This document shows positions 10,234 through 62,842 of a DNA stretch of 64,000 bases, piece by piece. Made by a program: the position numbers and the translations under genes. This DNA comes from Rhizobiaceae bacterium. GTDB lineage: Bacteria; Pseudomonadota; Alphaproteobacteria; Rhizobiales; Rhizobiaceae. Below the pieces are notes generated by a model. The model had not been told where the DNA came from and searched no databases. It was given only the letters and a program-made list of their open reading frames with translations. The stretch is taken from positions 1,417,731-1,481,730 of the forward strand of contig OZ246966.1 of NCBI GenBank assembly GCA_965232405.1. Reading direction: 5' to 3'. Numbering within the stretch: position 1 is the stretch's first letter; each line of letters opens with the position of its first letter.

Positions 10234-11160
10234 TCAGCGCGAAGCAAAGCCGTCGGCGATCTGCCGGGCGACAGCATAATCCTCACCATCGACCACACTG
10301 AATCCGCCTCCCCGGTAGGGCTCCAGAAGCTCATAGATCTCCGGCTGCTGCTCATGCAGGCTGACCAGAAAACGACCAAGGCGGCCCTTCAGCTCTTCCG
10401 GCAGTTCCGAGCGCACCACGTGCGGGCCGTAGGTCAACGTACCGGACGACCAGATCACTTTCAGGTCGTCTCCGTTCACGCCGGCGGCCTTGAGGCGCGC
10501 CAGCGATCCTGATCGCACCTCCGTCCACTGCGCAGCGTGCGCAGGCTCCCAGCCGACAAGGACATCCGCGTCGCCTGCGGCAAACGACGCCTCGGCCTCG
10601 CCGTGCGACGGCGCATGGACAATCGTGCCGGCGCGGCCGGGCACACCGGCCTCGTTGACGGCGGCCAGCGCCAGCACCTGCGGGCCGAGATCGTCAGCGG
10701 GTCCCGCAACCAGACGGGCGCCGGACCATTGCTGCAGGTCGTCATAAGTGCCGCTCCGCGCGATCACGACCGCGCGCATGCCGACCACGCCGTCAACGCC
10801 CCGCGGAGCCGCAACCGGCTCGACACAGCCACAATAGGCGTCCGTCACCGCATAGGCCGTTGCGGATAAGATCGCGTAGTGGACGCGCTGCTGCGATATC
10901 GCGCGGATCAGGGAGGGATAGTCACGCGCGACAAGTATCTCGGCCGGAATGCCGGCGGCCCGTTCGAACGCAGCAGTCATCTGCTTCAGGCCGGCAACGC
11001 CGCGTCCGCCTGAAGGCGACACCATGCCGATGCGCAGCGTGCCGATCTCGTCCTGCCAGTCGGCGAGCGCAGGAGAAGCGGAGGCAAGCGCTAACCCCGC
11101 CAGAGCAAAGCCGGCGCTTTTTGCGCTGCCAAGAACCTTATTGAAGCTCCTGCCCGTCAT
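10234..11160 (-). CDS. PhnD-like phosphate/phosphonate ABC substrate-binding protein
   Basis: Signal peptide ALA|DW, LRIG, DYPSLI, GPHVVRSELPEELK. Confidence 0.75.
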   Translation of the reverse strand: MTGRSFNKVLGSAKSAGFALAGLALASASPALADWQDEIGTLRIGMVSPSGGRGVAGLKQMTAAFERAAGIPAEILVARDYPSLIRAISQQRVHYAILSATAYAVTDAYCGCVEPVAAPRGVDGVVGMRAVVIARSGTYDDLQQWSGARLVAGPADDLGPQVLALAAVNEAGVPGRAGTIVHAPSHGEAEASFAAGDADVLVGWEPAHAAQWTEVRSGSLARLKAAGVNGDDLKVIWSSGTLTYGPHVVRSELPEELKGRLGRFLVSLHEQQPEIYELLEPYRGGGFSVVDGEDYAVARQIADGFASR

Positions 11161-58766: not shown

Positions 58767-59179
58767 AAGGATAAGGGAGATTCAGAGGGCGGGGATAGAT
58801 TTTTTTGGAGGGGCGCGGGAAGACTCGCGAGAGAGATCGAGTGTCCCCTTGGGGAAGGCATTACGCAGCAGTCACCTACGGAATCGCCAACACTATGGCA
58901 TAATGACATATTTATATCTGAAATTTGCAATAATGTCAGTATAGTAGACCCATTCTGCAGTGCAGCGAGAATCGGTTGCGCTGCAATATTTGCAAATGGC
59001 AAAGAATCGGCTTAATGATTGATGCCAGTGGTGCCTGAATGCTGAGTTCAATGCCACTGGGAGGATAGTAGTAAGTTATTGATTTTTAAGAATGTTTTTG
59101 GCGCTCGGTAAATTGAAGCTTTCCGGGCGGGGAGTATTTCTTGACTCCGGTTTCTACTTAGCCCATCAGACAAATGTCC

Positions 59180-59325
59180 AAACAAAGAAACCGCCGCGAA
59201 GCTGGCGAGCCGGCGACGGTTTCCACGTTGACACCCGCACAGACTGAGCGTCGGGCGCGGGCGTATGGCTTTGTAGTACACTGATGTTGAATCAGAATAG
59301 CACGCTATGGTCAAGCCCGACGGTC
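59180..59325 (-). ncRNA. Candidate sRNA or structured leader divergent from the DUF1508 gene
   Basis: Minus-strand 11-bp hairpin GAAACCGTCGC/GCGGCGGTTTC + TTTGTTT, plus a CCCGCGC/GTGCGGG stem. Confidence 0.4.
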
Positions 59326-59353
59326 GCTAACGCCAAGTAAGGGAGATACCCCA

Positions 59354-59563
59354 ATGGCACAGCGTACCTTTCCTTCGTACTGGTTGTACAAGGACAATCG
59401 TGGCGAGTGGCGATGGAGCTACGAAGCCAGTAACGGCAGAACCATCGCTGTAAGTAGCGAAAGCTACAAACGTCGTGTCGATGCCGAACGCAGCATCGAG
59501 ATCATGCGGGAGTCGGCCAACAGTCCGACTTGGTATCCTGCAGATCTTGAGAACGCGGCTTAG
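59354..59563 (+). CDS. YegP/DUF1508 (UPF0339) family small protein, 69 aa
   Basis: YKDNRGEWRW...ASNGRTIAVSSESYKRRVDAERSI motif; SD GGGAG. Confidence 0.88.
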   Translation: MAQRTFPSYWLYKDNRGEWRWSYEASNGRTIAVSSESYKRRVDAERSIEIMRESANSPTWYPADLENAA

Positions 59564-59577
59564 GCCGCTCCTGGGGA

Positions 59578-59601
59578 TAGGTCGGTCGTTAGACCGGCCT
59601 A
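59578..59601 (+). terminator. Intergenic hairpin between DUF1508 gene and downstream ORF
   Basis: TAGGTCGGTC-gtta-GACCGGCCTA then TTT. Confidence 0.55.
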
Positions 59602-59632
59602 TTTCAGCGTGTTCCTAATCGAGAGAAAACCA

Positions 59633-60301
59633 ATGCCAAACTTCGGAATATCCGCATTCTTGCGGATCGTTCATATGAACGTTCGGCCCCAAAGGACTGA
59701 GCTGCGGAAACGAAGTGAGCCGCGCGACGGAGGTGGTTATGATTTCCACAATAGCCTTCGTCGCTTGGCAAATCGGATGATTATCGAAGGTGTACCCTTG
59801 GATGAGGTCCTAGCTGACGCGGCTCTTATTGTTAAGGAAGCGGAACGAAATTCTGCACGGCAAGGCTTGAGGCGCCTAAGCGCCTGGAGCGCCGAGAATG
59901 CAGGTGAGATTCTTAACTTTCAAAGTGTTTCGGTCCAAAGCCCCGATCGTCGTTTCTCGGTGACATATAAGCCAAACTTTGGACTGCGTTTCGGCCGAGA
60001 GGCAATTGCTATACATATTTGGAACACGGCAAGGCCGCGACTCGAAAATCGCATCGTCCGTGCTGTTCTCTCTCAATTTGCCGAGAGTTATCGCGATGCT
60101 GAGACAGCGCCCGATGATATCGCCGTGCTCTGCCTCCGAACGATGAGACTTATTCGGTTGGGTAATTCTGCTGAGTTTGCCGACCTAGGCCGGCTGATCA
60201 TGACGCACACAGATCAGACCCTTGCCGAAATCGCGAGCGACGACGGGCACCCGCCAGTACCTCCAGATGATCGGCCCGGCATACGGCCGCCCGGAGAATA
60301 G
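59633..60301 (+). CDS. Uncharacterised 222-aa protein
   Basis: Clean ORF with GAGAG SD before ATG 59633 in an AT-richer islet; no confident family. Confidence 0.8.
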   Translation: MPNFGISAFLRIVHMNVRPQRTELRKRSEPRDGGGYDFHNSLRRLANRMIIEGVPLDEVLADAALIVKEAERNSARQGLRRLSAWSAENAGEILNFQSVSVQSPDRRFSVTYKPNFGLRFGREAIAIHIWNTARPRLENRIVRAVLSQFAESYRDAETAPDDIAVLCLRTMRLIRLGNSAEFADLGRLIMTHTDQTLAEIASDDGHPPVPPDDRPGIRPPGE

Positions 60302-60370
60302 AAATTGGCTACCAGCCATCCATGTTAGACAATGACCGAATCGACGCCCTCCGCGCTTGAGTCGCGAGTA

Positions 60371-60478
60371 TGGGCACGCTGGCGGGACTTGAACCCGCAT
60401 CTCTCCGCTTGTACATTCACGATGTTCAGACGTGATGCCTTAGTGAAACAGAGGCTCTTCCAATTAAGCTACAGCGCG
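60371..60478 (-). ncRNA. tRNA-like RNA (108 nt) with canonical acceptor/D/T arms, encoded CCA and 39-nt anticodon loop
   Basis: Acceptor CGCGCTG/CAGCGTG+C+CCA; U8 A9; D arm GCTT-AATTGGAA-GAGC; anticodon stem TCTGT/GCGGA; variable GAGAT; T arm GCGGG-TTCAAGT-CCCGC. Confidence 0.85.
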
Positions 60479-60904
60479 TTTCCTTTGTGACTGTCGGATT
60501 AGGTAATCAACATCGGTTTCCGCAAGTTTCGATAGCTTGATGACGAGCGGATTTGGGTCAAGATAAGTTGCACCATCGGGCGCCTTAACGGGCGCCAACA
60601 ACTTAAGGTGCTCAAGCTGGGCAATGCTCCTTTGAACGGTACGCGGACTTGTTCCCATGCGTTTTGCGATAATCGACGAGCGCGGAAAGGGCTTTTGTTC
60701 CGCGTACCACCAGTGCATGAGCACATTAAGCAAGACAACCAAGTCCGTAGCCGACAACTCAAGCGTCTTTTGATGCTTCAAAAGTAAATCTGGAACGGCT
60801 TGGAACCCGGCATCTGCCGCCTTTCCCCACTTTTCGGAAATGCGCGGACCGCCGGATTCAATCTTTGCCGAGCCCAACTCGCTATTTGGATCAATCGATT
60901 TCAT
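60464..60904 (-). CDS. Winged helix-turn-helix protein (DnaD-N/HTH_36-like, mobile-element type), 146 aa
   Basis: GFQAVPDLLL, VLLNVLMHWW, PFPRSSIIAKRMGTSPRTVQRSIAQLE HTH. Confidence 0.85.
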   Translation of the reverse strand: MKSIDPNSELGSAKIESGGPRISEKWGKAADAGFQAVPDLLLKHQKTLELSATDLVVLLNVLMHWWYAEQKPFPRSSIIAKRMGTSPRTVQRSIAQLEHLKLLAPVKAPDGATYLDPNPLVIKLSKLAETDVDYLIRQSQRKRAVA

Positions 60905-60949
60905 ACCAAAATATTAACAGAACCGATTACCAAAATCAAGATATCTGTT
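60904..60949 (-). promoter_or_regulatory. Putative leaderless sigma70 promoter of the wHTH gene with flanking inverted repeat
   Basis: TTGATT-N17-TAATAT-tttggt-ATG; no SD; AACAGA/TCTGTT inverted repeat at 60916-60921 and 60944-60949. Confidence 0.55.
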
Positions 60950-61036
60950 TAACAACGCGGCGCCTGTGTCGCTTTTTCTGACGTACACGACATTTCGATC
61001 AAGAGTCGTCGGCTTGCCTAGGCGTACCCAGCGGGC

Positions 61037-62842
61037 CTAATCGCCCATCTTCAGCGCTTCGATGAACGCCGCCTGGGGGATTTCCACGCGGCCGAACTGG
61101 CGCATCTTCTTCTTGCCCTCTTTCTGCTTCTCCAGCAGTTTTCGTTTACGCGTCACGTCGCCGCCATAACATTTGGCAGTGACGTCCTTCCTGAGGGCCG
61201 CGATGGTTTCGCGCGCGATGACCTTGCCGCCGATCGCCGCCTGGATCGGGATCTTGAACATGTGGCGGGGGATAAGGTCCTTCAGCTTCTCGCACATGGC
61301 GCGGCCGCGCTTTTCCGCCGCCTGGCGATGGACCAGCATGGAGAGCGCATCGACCGGCTCCTCGTTGACGAGGATCGACATCTTGACGAGGTCGCCCTCG
61401 CGGTAGCCGGTGAGCTGGTAGTCGAAGCTGGCGTAACCGCGTGAGATGGACTTCAGCCGGTCGTAGAAATCGAACACCACCTCGTTGAGCGGCAGATCGT
61501 AGGTGAGCATGGCGCGGGCGCCGGCATATGACAGGTCGTGCTGAATGCCGCGGCGCTCCTGGCAGAGCGTGAGGATGGAGCCCAGATAATCGTCCGGCGT
61601 GAGGATGGTGGCGCGGATCCACGGCTCCTCGATCGAGGCGATCTTGACCACGTCGGGCATGTCGGCCGGGTTGTGCAGCTCCAGCGTGGAGCCGTCGGTC
61701 ATCAGCATGCGGTAGACGACGGAAGGCGCGGTGGCGATCAGGTCGAGGTCGAACTCGCGCTCCAGCCGTTCCTGGATGATCTCCAGGTGAAGCAGGCCGA
61801 GAAAGCCGCAGCGGAAGCCGAAGCCGAGCGCTGCCGAGGTCTCCATCTCGAAGGAGAAGCTGGCGTCGTTGAGCCGCAGCTTGCCCATCGCGGCGCGCAG
61901 ATCTTCGAAATCGGCGGCATCGACGGGGAACAGGCCGCAGAACACCACCGGCTGGGCCGGCTTGAAGCCCGGCAGCGGCGTGGTGGTGGGGCGGCGCTCG
62001 TCGGTGATGGTGTCACCCACGCGCGTGTCGGCTACCTCCTTGATGGAGGCGGTGATGAAACCCAGCTCGCCGGGGCCGAGCTCGCCGGTCAGCACCATTT
62101 TGGGCGTGATCACGCCGACGCGGTCGACAAGATATTTGGCGCCGGTGCCCATCATGCGGATCTGCTGACCCTTTTTCAGCTTGCCGTCGACGATGCGGAC
62201 CAGAACGATGACGCCGAGATAAGAGTCGTACCAGCTGTCGACCAGCATGGCCTTCAGCGGGGCGTCAGCGTCGCCCTCCTTCGGCGGCGGCAGCTTCTTG
62301 ACGATTGCTTCCAGCACGTCGGGGACGCCCTTGCCGGTCTTGGCCGAGATCATCACCGCGTCGGACGCGTCAAGGCCGATGACGTCCTCGACCTGCTCCT
62401 TGATGCGCTCGGGCTCGGCGGCGGGCAGGTCGACCTTGTTCAAGACGACCACGATCTCGTGGTCGGCATCGAGCGCCTGATAGACATTGGCCAGCGTCTG
62501 CGCCTCGACGCCTTGGCTAGCGTCGACCACCAGCAGCGAACCCTCGCAGGCGCGGAGCGAGCGGGAGACCTCATAGGCGAAGTCGACATGGCCGGGCGTG
62601 TCGATGAGGTTCAGCACATAATGCTCGCCGTCGGCGGCATCATATTCGAGGCGCACGGTGTTGGCCTTGATGGTGATGCCGCGCTCGCGCTCGATGTCCA
62701 TGGCGTCGAGCACCTGCTCCTTCATCTCGCGCTCTTCCAGCGAGCCGGTCATCTGGATGAGCCGGTCGGCCAGCGTCGACTTGCCGTGGTCGATATGGGC
62801 AACGATGGAGAAGTTGCGGATGTTTTTGAGAGGCGTGGTCAT
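61037..62842 (-). CDS. lepA: Elongation factor 4
   Basis: [42 protein letters not shown]. Confidence 0.98.

What the first reader, a model, noticed from the sequence alone, without database searches (positions are those of the whole stretch)
60464..60478. The wHTH stop codon lies inside the tRNA-like RNA, so processing would create a non-stop mRNA
tRNA positions 1-15 (CGC GCT GTA GCT TAA) are exactly the last codons R-A-V-A-stop of the wHTH gene, with position 1 at a codon boundary. RNase P cleavage at +1 would leave an mRNA ending ...AGG AAA with no stop, which established trans-translation would tag for degradation. Conversely, a terminating ribosome would melt the acceptor and D stems. RNA maturation and protein output would then be mutually exclusive, a regulatory coupling I do not know to be described.
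Basis: partly seen in the sequence, partly recalled or inferred. Interest (0 to 1): 0.85.

Follow-up and report, generated by a model that had tools for sequence, protein, structure and literature searches.

The report
Stop codon inside a tRNA-like RNA
A small DNA-binding (replication-type) gene ends inside a tRNA-shaped RNA, and this gene-plus-RNA pair recurs in over 20 mobile-element loci of Alphaproteobacteria, so RNA processing and completion of the protein may be coupled, though no experiment has tested this.

Summary
The minus-strand ORF 60904..60464 (146 aa, DnaD_N/HTH_36 winged helix) ends CGC GCT GTA GCT TAA. These 15 nt are positions 1-15 of a 108-nt tRNA-like RNA (60478..60371). The RNA scores 41 bits on Rfam tRNA. 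It has canonical acceptor, D and T arms and a CCA end, but a 51-nt elongated arm replaces the anticodon stem-loop.

It is not a one-off. The same tRNA-Arg-derived long-arm RNA lies directly 3' of a homologous wHTH gene in at least 21 independent alphaproteobacterial loci (plasmids, ICEs, defence islands).
- In 11 loci, a paraphyletic deep grade (mostly one deep clade), the stop codon lies inside the RNA. In 10 of these it is U8-A9-G10 read as UAG.
- In the sister clade the stop lies 6-18 nt upstream.
- Some close homologues have swapped the tRNA-like for another structured 3' element.

Covariation supports the extra arm. The genome has RNase P RNA, tmRNA and SmpB.

The proposed link (RNase P cut, then non-stop mRNA, then tmRNA tagging) is plausible for the overlap clade. 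It cannot be the universal role of the RNA and is untested; no RNA-seq was available. The principle has precedents in arfA and lacI.

Verdict: a real, conserved, apparently undescribed cassette. Its mechanism is inferred.

The parts
60464..60904 (-). wHTH gene, 146 aa: DnaD N-domain-like / HTH_36 winged helix, Rep-like
   Evidence: ORF. Pfam HTH_36 32.5 bits and DnaD_N 31.4 bits, both above cut-off. PHROG 8102, replication initiation protein. More than 186 homologues. AF2 model pLDDT 79.8, with Foldseek top hits to the DnaD N-domain.
60464..60478 (-). 15-nt overlap: tRNA-like positions 1-15 = codons R-A-V-A-stop (CGC GCT GTA GCT TAA)
   Evidence: The TAA exists because position 13 is U; 22 of 23 family members have C13.
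60371..60478 (-). 108-nt tRNA-like RNA derived from tRNA-Arg, including discriminator C (60374) and CCA (60373-60371)
   Evidence: Rfam tRNA 41.3 bits. Own model R1 94.2 bits. Fold. Nearest canonical relatives are tRNA-Arg.
60472..60478 (-). Acceptor stem, 5' strand (pairs with 60375-60381)
   Evidence: Acceptor pairs 2-7 covary across 23 sequences.
60454..60469 (-). D arm (GCUU AAUUGGAA GAGC), holding the stop codon UAA at 60464-60466
   Evidence: The D stem is paired in 100% of the family.
60403..60453 (-). Elongated arm replacing the anticodon stem-loop: basal stem 60446-60453/60403-60410, internal loop, distal hairpin 60413-60438 with loop UCUGAACAU
   Evidence: Across the family the basal stem is 95.7% paired with 5 of 5 pairs compensatory, and the distal hairpin has 5 of 5 pairs compensatory.
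60382..60398 (-). T arm GCGGG UUCAAGU CCCGC
60296..60318 (-). Terminator-like hairpin plus U-rich tail about 55 nt after the CCA. Likely end of the wHTH + tRNA-like transcript, shared with the convergent ORF.
   Evidence: Consensus scan only; weak evidence.
58806..61038 (.). 2.2-kb low-GC islet (about 50% vs 65% GC) in a variable hotspot just 3' of lepA. It contains the cassette plus two convergent ORFs.
   Evidence: Composition. Homology to four same-genus genomes stops at 58805 and 61038/9. The relatives carry HSDR_N / GmrSD_N-like genes at this site.
59354..60301 (+). Convergent cargo: DUF1508 protein (59354-59563) and a 230-aa ORF with no family hit (59609-60301). Not conserved with the cassette elsewhere.

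Best explanation
**What it is (shown).** This is the local copy of a conserved two-part cassette of alphaproteobacterial mobile DNA. One part is a DnaD-N/HTH_36 winged-helix gene, probably a replication or regulator-type DNA binder. The other, on the same strand and immediately following it, is a 105-117-nt tRNA-Arg-derived RNA. The RNA keeps the acceptor stem, D arm, T arm, elbow nucleotides and usually CCA. Its anticodon stem-loop is replaced by a long covarying arm: a basal stem, a GAA//AGUA-type internal loop and a distal hairpin.

In one deep clade (7 of the 8 overlap loci in the tree, including the window) the ORF runs through the acceptor 5' strand. It ends on the tRNA's invariant U8-A9-G10, read as UAG. 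In the window the frame differs and a unique C13-to-U change supplies UAA. In the sister clade the stop lies 6-18 nt before position 1.

**How it most likely works (inferred).**
1. Gene and RNA are one transcript.
2. RNase P cuts at position +1 and releases a stable tRNA-shaped RNA.
3. The same cut leaves the wHTH message without a stop codon (overlap clade), or with the stop at an unprotected 3' end (sister clade).
4. Processed messages are then dead-ended and handled by tmRNA-SmpB.
5. Full-length wHTH is completed only on unprocessed transcripts.
6. Conversely, a ribosome terminating within 18 nt of, or inside, the acceptor stem melts the fold that RNase P needs.

The net effect would be a post-transcriptional limiter on a dosage-sensitive DNA-binding protein, coupled to production of the RNA. 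The RNA's own role remains unknown.
For: - **Overlap and fold:**
- **Conserved linkage:**
  - Aureimonas locus: Rfam tRNA 43 bits, overlapping the ORF stop.
  - Eight genome loci found by a T-arm pattern all have a wHTH gene upstream.
  - Metagenome loci show the same.
  - G207 adds one more.
- **Protein-first test, unbiased for the RNA:** short C-terminal tails (...xTA/xAA/xVA) predicted the RNA in 4 of 4 loci, and long tails predicted its absence in 6 of 6.
- **Stop position:** tRNA positions 8-10 in 10 loci, positions 13-15 in the window, and -6 to -18 in 10-11 loci.
- **Only conserved neighbour:** the wHTH gene alone is conserved next to the RNA.
- **Tree:** the linkage is ancestral, the overlap state is old, and the RNA was lost or replaced once or twice.
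- **Covariation:** supports the acceptor stem, the basal stem and the distal hairpin.
- **Origin:** tRNA-Arg.
- **3' end:** by eye, CCA sits at positions 73-76 in at least 15 of 23 sequences.
- **Host machinery:** RNase P RNA, SmpB and tmRNA are present.
- **Precedent:** processing-made non-stop mRNA used as regulation, in arfA (PMC3989581).
Against: - No transcript data exist. Co-transcription, RNase P cleavage and tagging are all inferred.
- In the sister clade the stop is kept upstream of the cut, so non-stop formation is not universal.
- Six close homologues do without the tRNA-like.
- One tRNA-like (L085) has no wHTH gene upstream.
- The window copy is atypical within the family: different reading frame, U13.G22, and a divergent arm lacking the GAA//AGUA motif. 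It sits in a 2.2-kb remnant without mobility genes, so it could be decaying.
- With coupled transcription-translation, most protein could be made before processing, which would make the overlap neutral.
Confidence: 0.42

Rival explanations
1. Neutral compaction. The tRNA-like is an independent RNA gene with its own, unknown job, placed tightly against the wHTH gene in compact mobile DNA. The ORF ends in it only because any ORF entering a tRNA in that frame meets U8-A9-G10 = UAG. The overlap has no regulatory consequence.
For: - The UAG is an invariant tRNA feature, so the stop comes for free.
- The sister clade works with the stop upstream.
- The last two residues simply follow acceptor-stem covariation: AA, TA, AV, MM, AM.
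- The C-terminal tail differs freely among homologues.
Against: - The gap never exceeds 18 nt in about 21 loci.
- The overlap persisted mostly through one deep clade with branch lengths over 1 substitution per site.
- In the window, after a frame change, a new stop arose by a structure-preserving C13-to-U change (G.U wobble) rather than by loss of the overlap.
- tRNA-less homologues also bury their stop codon in a conserved helix.
Confidence: 0.3
2. The RNA is a functional partner of the wHTH protein. Candidates are an RNA cofactor, a decoy, or a primer/origin element of a Rep-type initiator; the 3'-OH left on the upstream RNA by RNase P could prime DNA synthesis. It might also be an aminoacylatable tRNA-Arg mimic. 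The overlap would be secondary.
For: - The wHTH gene is the only conserved neighbour.
- The DnaD-N fold and PHROG replication-initiator hits fit an initiator role.
- A homologue is one of only two CDS on a 2.8-kb E. coli plasmid.
- The long arm, with its conserved internal-loop motif and covarying hairpin, looks like a protein-binding surface.
- By eye, CCA and the Arg-type nucleotides A20 and C35 are retained in most members.
Against: - No iterons or repeats flank the cassette.
- Close homologues function without the RNA.
- No binding or charging data exist.
- C35-U36-A37 may be conserved only because they pair in the arm.
Confidence: 0.15
3. Integration-site relic. The tRNA-like is what remains of a tRNA-Arg gene used as an attachment site by the element that carries the wHTH gene.
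For: - It derives from tRNA-Arg.
- Two chromosomal loci have canonical tRNA-Arg genes 0.6-2 kb away.
- L070 has two tandem copies.
- The flanks are mobile or defence cargo.
Against: - No direct repeats of its 3' end occur in the genome or in the loci examined.
- No integrase is conserved nearby.
- It is a full-length cloverleaf with a conserved, covarying 35-45-nt insertion, not a 3' fragment.
- In the window it lies in the middle of the islet, not at its border.
Confidence: 0.06
4. A real, decoding tRNA-Arg whose 35-45-nt insertion is removed as an intron.
For: By eye, after the basal stem most members keep a heptamer resembling an Arg anticodon loop (UUUCUAC, UUCCUAC, UUUCGAG, UGACGAA), with anticodons UCU, CCU, UCG or ACG. 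A20 and CCA are also retained.
Against: - From general knowledge, bacteria have no known machinery for such short tRNA introns.
- The window copy reads UCA followed by C37.
- The host already has all tRNA-Arg isoacceptors.
- The insertion has its own conserved structure.
- Pair 1-72 is broken in 14 of 23 members.
Confidence: 0.04

Closest known systems
arfA regulation in E. coli (RNase III cleavage inside the ORF makes a non-stop mRNA; tmRNA tags the product)
   Same: A structured RNA element overlaps the 3' end of an ORF. Endonucleolytic processing would remove the stop codon, and output then depends on trans-translation (PMC3989581).
   Different: There the nuclease is RNase III acting on a plain hairpin, and the gene is a ribosome-rescue factor. 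Here the presumed nuclease is RNase P acting on a tRNA mimic, the by-product would be a stable tRNA-shaped RNA, and the gene is a DNA-binding protein of mobile elements. Nothing here has been tested.
Bacterial mRNA-tRNA co-transcripts processed by RNase P (e.g. secG-leuU, tufB operon; from general knowledge)
   Same: A tRNA-type fold lies on the same strand next to a protein gene, and RNase P would separate the two.
   Different: In those cases the tRNAs are genuine decoders and lie clear of the coding sequence. Here the RNA cannot decode, and it overlaps or abuts the stop codon within 18 nt in every locus.
Mitochondrial tRNA punctuation with incomplete or overlapping stop codons (from general knowledge)
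   Same: tRNA excision defines the mRNA 3' end at or inside the stop codon.
   Different: Mitochondria complete the stop by polyadenylation. No such repair is known in bacteria, where the result would be a non-stop mRNA.
MALAT1-mascRNA / MEN-beta 3' tRNA-like elements
   Same: A tRNA-like fold at the 3' end of a longer transcript is cut by RNase P to yield a small tRNA-like RNA.
   Different: That system is eukaryotic and non-coding. Rfam RF01684 scores only 14.8 bits here against a cut-off of 42.5.
tmRNA and other bacterial tRNA mimics (YrlA)
   Same: tRNA-derived acceptor/T-arm module with a CCA end.
   Different: tmRNA lacks a D stem and has G3:U70, pseudoknots and a tag ORF. In YrlA the tRNA-like part has a different topology. 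Neither is fused to an ORF end.
DnaD N-terminal domain / MarR-type winged-helix proteins
   Same: Matching fold and Pfam hits.
   Different: A 146-aa stand-alone protein of mobile elements in Proteobacteria. No DnaD C-terminal domain is present.

Membership tests
Canonical tRNA (Rfam RF00005) | Covariance-model score above the gathering threshold | tested here: met
   41.3 bits against 29.
Canonical tRNA (Rfam RF00005) | 5-bp anticodon stem closed by a 7-nt loop with an anticodon | tested here: not met
   A 37-nt insertion sits in the loop. ARAGORN finds no tRNA. The fold shows an 8-bp stem, an internal loop and a hairpin.
Canonical tRNA (Rfam RF00005) | Elbow nucleotides (U8, A14, G18G19, A21, T54 T55 C56, A58) and a 3' CCA | tested here: met
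   Columns are invariant or nearly invariant across 23 sequences. The window has CCA at 60373-60371.
Canonical tRNA (Rfam RF00005) | Needed for the decoding set of the genome | tested here: not met
   The genome has 49 tRNAs covering all 20 amino acids, including five Arg isoacceptors. The element is absent from 60 relatives.
arfA-type control by a processing-made non-stop mRNA | Structured RNA element overlapping the 3' end of the ORF so that cleavage removes the stop codon | tested here: met
   The stop lies at tRNA-like positions 13-15 and the presumed RNase P site at +1. The same holds in 10 further loci.
arfA-type control by a processing-made non-stop mRNA | Demonstrated endonucleolytic cleavage and tmRNA tagging of the product | not testable with these tools
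   No RNA reads on the locus and no RNA runs for relatives. Only the machinery is shown to be present.
tmRNA | Tag reading frame, pseudoknots, G3:U70, no D stem | tested here: not met
   The D stem is canonical, the wobble pair is G2.U71 rather than G3:U70, and the RNA is only 108 nt. The genuine two-piece tmRNA lies elsewhere in the genome.
tRNA-gene attachment site of an integrative element | Direct repeat of the tRNA 3' end at the other island border, and an adjacent integrase | tested here: not met
   No repeat in the genome or window, nor in L103/L104. No conserved neighbour other than the wHTH gene. The islet borders lie at 58805 and 61038, away from the RNA.
mascRNA/menRNA (RF01684) | Rfam gathering score | tested here: not met
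   14.8 bits against 42.5.
DnaD_N / HTH_36 winged-helix proteins | Pfam domain score above cut-off and a matching fold | tested here: met
   PF13730 32.5 bits against 25, and PF21984 31.4 against 27. Foldseek hits 9a5c_B and 2v79 at E 1.5e-4 to 4e-4.
Known anti-phage defence proteins (PADLOC) | Match to a PADLOC model | tested here: not met
   No hit for the wHTH protein, the 230-aa ORF or the DUF1508 protein.

The most novel reading that the evidence does not exclude
This would be a previously undescribed RNA family: tRNA-Arg-derived, CCA-bearing tRNA mimics with a helix-extended, anticodon-less arm, hard-wired to the 3' end of a Rep/DnaD-like winged-helix gene of alphaproteobacterial plasmids, ICEs and defence islands.

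RNase P maturation of the mimic and completion of the protein would be mutually exclusive, because the ORF's stop codon is the tRNA's own U8-A9-G10. The dose of the DNA-binding protein would then be set by competition between translation and RNase P, with tmRNA clearing the losers.

The released mimic, which may be recognised by ArgRS through A20/C35, would carry a second, trans-acting function.
Probability: 0.2. Interest if true: 0.85.

Novelty: new variant of a known kind. Interest (0 to 1): 0.72.

Why it matters
If RNase P processing of a 3' tRNA mimic turns a bacterial mRNA into a non-stop message, three housekeeping systems (RNase P, the ribosome, tmRNA) would be linked into one gene-dosage switch used by mobile elements. 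That would be a new post-transcriptional control route for plasmid or ICE replication and regulator proteins.

Independently of mechanism, three results stand:
- The work defines a structured RNA family that current tools file only as an odd tRNA hit.
- It shows how a tRNA-Arg gene was remodelled by a covarying helical insertion.
- It gives a simple sequence signature (ORF ending ...GCG GCG TAG CTC AA...) to find further members.

The idea is directly testable in cultivable carriers: Aureimonas phyllosphaerae, Roseomonas rosea, Shimia, Mesorhizobium.

Tried and rejected
- **ARAGORN on the window:** no tRNA called.
- **Repeated element or copy of a host tRNA:** rejected. It is single-copy, and the best host match is only a partial match to tRNA-Arg(UCG).
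- **Vertical conservation:** absent from 60 relatives. Among 400 alphaproteobacterial genomes, only G000 and G207 carry this family. G376 has a different long-insert tRNA with no wHTH gene.
- **The search for related loci with the protein:** nothing found.
- **Viral contigs:** no match.
- **Transcript evidence:** the listed RNA runs carry the same species label but hold no reads on the locus. No runs exist for Aureimonas, Mesorhizobium or Roseomonas loci.
- **att repeats or iterons:** none found.
- **Conserved gene neighbours other than the wHTH gene:** none found.
- **PADLOC and NCBIfam naming:** nothing useful.
- **Literature:** no description of this cassette found.
- **Considered and set aside:** tRNA-Sec (no 8/5 or 9/4 stems, no long variable arm), tmRNA and YrlA.
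- **Antisense pairing between the distal loop and the wHTH RBS:** not tested, because start codons in most loci are uncertain.

Full report
**1. The observation.** On the minus strand the window reads ...CAA AGG AAA CGC GCT GTA GCT TAA TTG G.... ORF 60904..60464 encodes 146 aa ending RKRAVA*. It hits Pfam HTH_36 and DnaD_N above their cut-offs.

Rfam's tRNA model matches 60478..60374 at 41.3 bits (gathering score 29) from model position 1 to 71. It places a 37-nt insertion in the anticodon loop. This is the only Rfam hit in the whole 64-kb window. ARAGORN calls nothing.

The MFE fold is a cloverleaf with these parts:
- acceptor stem 60478-60472 / 60381-60375, with G2.U71
- D arm 60469-60454, with U13.G22
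- T arm 60398-60382, GCGGG-UUCAAGU-CCCGC
- discriminator C and CCA at 60374-60371
- instead of an anticodon stem-loop, an 8-bp basal stem, an internal loop and a distal hairpin (60453-60403)

Positions 1-15 are therefore exactly the last four sense codons plus TAA, with position 1 on a codon boundary.

**2. Genomic setting.** The genome is a single 3.87-Mb contig from an alphaproteobacterium. It has 49 tRNAs covering all amino acids and a two-piece tmRNA with tag ANDNYAEARLAA. It also has RNase P RNA and SmpB.

The tRNA-like is single-copy and is not a near copy of any host tRNA. It lies in a low-GC stretch, about 50% against 65%. Comparison with four same-genus genomes shows homology stopping at 58805 on one side and at 61038/9 on the other, right after the lepA stop. 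The 2.2-kb islet is therefore strain-specific and sits in a variable hotspot. Relatives carry HSDR_N-nuclease and GmrSD_N-like genes at that site.

The islet holds four features: the wHTH gene, the tRNA-like, and two convergent ORFs (a DUF1508 protein and a 230-aa ORF with no family hit). There is no integrase, no flanking repeat and no iterons. A weak terminator-like hairpin follows the tRNA-like at 60318-60306.

**3. The cassette is conserved.** The wHTH protein has more than 186 homologues at 50-70% identity.

*First relative.* The first one looked up was Aureimonas phyllosphaerae, in an ICE-like context with TrwC and ParA. It has an Rfam tRNA hit of 43 bits that overlaps the ORF's stop codon.

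*DNA-first searches.*
- An exact scan of one genome per species with the shared T-arm 21-mer returned 31 loci. The eight alphaproteobacterial ones with a long-insert tRNA all had a wHTH homologue immediately upstream.
- A gapped pattern on metagenome contigs added about a dozen more.
- A covariance model built from nine members (R1) found the long form in only 2 of 400 other alphaproteobacterial genomes. One of these, G207, belongs to this family. The cassette is therefore rare and patchy, as expected for mobile DNA.
- None was found in viral contigs.

*Neighbours.* All-against-all comparison of flanking ORFs showed the wHTH gene is the only conserved neighbour. The other flanks are variable:
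- Abi_C, a reverse transcriptase, Abi_2/HEPN and a resolvase
- relaxases and T4SS genes
- Mrr, IS elements and canonical tRNA-Arg genes

**4. Position of the stop codon.** In class A the stop lies inside the RNA. Ten loci beside the window show this:
- L028/L003 Aureimonas
- L030 Aestuariivirga
- L024 Roseomonas
- L080, L073, L088 and L070
- L103, L104 and L105 (Shimia)

In these the ORF ends at tRNA-like positions 8-10, the invariant U8-A9-G10 read as TAG (TAA in L070).

The window is the eleventh overlap case but uses another frame. Its U8A9G10 is out of frame (GTA GCT), and termination relies on TAA at positions 13-15. That TAA exists because position 13 is U. In 22 of 23 family members it is C. 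The change keeps the D-stem pair as a G.U wobble. Without it, the sequence shows the ORF would run eight codons further, to TAA at positions 37-39.

In class B (10-11 loci: L019 Mesorhizobium, L031 Methyloceanibacter, L016, L039, L023, L079/L089, L086, L087, L084, L096) the stop lies 6-18 nt upstream of position 1. In every locus the gap is at most 18 nt.

One tRNA-like (L085) has no wHTH gene upstream. Three lie at contig ends and cannot be judged.

**5. A protein-first, RNA-blind test.** Six close homologues (59-69% identity) carry no tRNA-like. They have a longer C-terminus (...RRRDGEE.GP.QHPPG*). They also have a different conserved structured 3' element that ends in a GC-rich terminator hairpin. 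In that element the stop codon again sits inside a predicted conserved helix.

Among the 120 listed homologues, about 38 have short tails ending xTA, xAA or xVA. That is what an acceptor strand such as ACG GCG TAG would encode. I predicted these carry the RNA and tested three. All three have it, with the stop at positions 8-10. Their T stems differ from my search pattern. Tail type thus predicted presence in 4 of 4 loci and absence in 6 of 6.

**6. Phylogeny.** An ML tree of 24 wHTH proteins gives class B as one clade (support 87/81). Class A is a paraphyletic deep grade. The tRNA-less genes nest within its crown, beside the window, Aureimonas, and L080/L073. L103-L105 were found afterwards and are not in the tree.

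The linkage to the tRNA-like is therefore ancestral. The overlap state is old, persisting over branches longer than 1 substitution per site. The RNA was lost or replaced once or twice.

**7. The RNA.** On a 23-sequence alignment (A2) my specified structure has 88.6% of cells paired, against 81.0% in shuffles (0 of 500 as high). Eighteen pairs show double changes.
- The basal stem of the extra arm is 95.7% paired, and all five of its pairs show compensatory changes.
- The distal hairpin also has five of five pairs compensatory.
- Acceptor pairs 2-7 covary, but pair 1-72 is unpaired in 14 of 23 sequences.
- The D arm and the T-loop elbow nucleotides are invariant.

The model's best canonical matches across Alphaproteobacteria are tRNA-Arg(UCU). 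The D arms are identical. After the basal stem most members keep an anticodon-loop-like heptamer (UUUCUAC, UUCCUAC, UUUCGAG and similar). A 30-40-nt insertion follows it, usually with GAA on one strand and AGUA on the other, a loop-E-like pattern as judged by eye. Then comes a hairpin whose loop often reads YUGACAA.

By eye, CCA is at positions 73-76 in at least 15 of 23 members. The window's arm departs from this consensus.

The element is thus a tRNA-Arg remodelled into a long-armed mimic that cannot decode. It keeps everything that, from general knowledge, bacterial RNase P uses: a 12-bp acceptor/T stack, the elbow, and RCCA.

**8. The protein.** The AF2 model has pLDDT 79.8. Its best Foldseek matches are the DnaD N-terminal domain (2v79, 9a5c), followed by MarR-type repressors. 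The C-terminal helix, residues 132-145, runs to the last residue.

PHROG hits are replication-initiation proteins. Homologues occur on many small plasmids, including a 2.8-kb E. coli plasmid with only two CDS. A Rep-like or regulator role is plausible but not shown.

**9. Mechanism.**

*Shown:*
- the anatomy of the overlap and the fold
- the conservation of the cassette
- covariation in the extra arm
- the presence of the host machinery

*Inferred:*
- Gene and RNA form one transcript.
- RNase P cuts at position +1.
- In class A this yields a non-stop wHTH message handled by tmRNA-SmpB.
- In class B it yields a message ending 3-15 nt after its stop, exposed to 3' exonucleases.
- A ribosome terminating so close to, or within, the acceptor stem must unfold it. 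Translation and maturation therefore compete.

It cannot be the reason the RNA exists, given class B and the tRNA-less homologues. The principle is also not new: arfA uses RNase III to make a non-stop mRNA whose product is tmRNA-tagged (PMC3989581), and from my own knowledge lacI is a second case. I found no report of an RNase P / tRNA-mimic version or of this cassette.

*Rivals:*
- neutral compaction
- the RNA as a partner, primer or chargeable mimic for the wHTH protein
- an att-site relic (no repeats, no integrase, and the RNA is not at the islet border)
- an intron-bearing tRNA-Arg (no known machinery)

**10. Limits.**
- No transcript data could be obtained.
- The DNA-pattern searches fixed the T arm, so invariance of the T arm in those sequences is uninformative. 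The link to the wHTH gene, the D arm and the long arm were not part of the patterns.
- The three protein-first loci are free of that bias.
- The window copy is a somewhat atypical member in a small remnant islet and could be decaying.

**Verdict.** The feature is real and conserved. It is best described as a new variant of mRNA-linked tRNA-like elements. The non-stop coupling is a credible, testable hypothesis for one deep grade of the family (mostly one deep clade). It is not established.

Noticed in passing
L006:5500-5625, L008:3062-3187, L093:3292-3420, L094:5066-5200 (also L090, L091): wHTH homologues without the tRNA-like share another conserved structured 3' element. The stop codon (GGG TAG CG) sits inside a predicted helix, followed by a hairpin and a GC-rich terminator (GGCCCCGGCG...CGCCGGGGCC). 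The ORF end is buried in RNA structure here too.
   Followed up: partly
L070:4742-4969 (-): Two tandem long-arm tRNA-likes (69.5 and 95.5 bits with model R1). The wHTH ORF stops at TAA, positions 8-10 of the first copy.
   Followed up: partly
L009:3996-4531 (-), Leptolyngbyaceae MAG: Array of four head-to-tail tRNA-like elements of about 126 nt, each with a 50-60-nt insertion in the anticodon region. No wHTH gene nearby. This is a different, cyanobacterial kind of long-insert tRNA.
   Followed up: no
L072:659-781 (same in L074, L075, L082); L095:4125-4234: Other long-insert tRNA-like genes (123 nt in soil metagenomes; 110 nt in a low-GC alphaproteobacterium, G376) without a wHTH neighbour. Their nature is unknown.
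   Followed up: no
window 58806-61038 and L097, L098, L099, L100: The site just 3' of lepA is a hypervariable hotspot in this genus. Each of four relatives carries different DNA of about 2.3-4 kb there, including an 822-aa HSDR_N nuclease-like protein and a GmrSD_N-like protein.
   Followed up: partly
window 59354-60301 (+): The DUF1508 (HVO_2922-like) small protein and the 230-aa ORF without any family hit are convergent with the cassette. They are not found next to the cassette in other loci. Their function is unknown.
   Followed up: partly
L101 (E. coli plasmid pB379_4, 2809 bp): A 2.8-kb non-mobilizable plasmid has only two annotated CDS, one of them a wHTH homologue (43% identity). This suggests the family can act as a plasmid replication protein.
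   Followed up: no
L103:5384-5460 and 10846-10921; L104:3945-4021: Canonical tRNA-Arg(UCG) and tRNA-Arg(UCU) genes lie within 0.6-4.5 kb of the cassette in two chromosomal loci. They share no 3'-end repeats with the tRNA-like.
   Followed up: partly
alignment A2, columns 1 and 118: Pair 1-72 of the tRNA-like is unpaired in 14 of 23 members. By eye, several of these (L089, L079, L076, L085, L019) read C1 opposite A72, which, from general knowledge, resembles bacterial initiator tRNA. Its significance is unknown.
   Followed up: no
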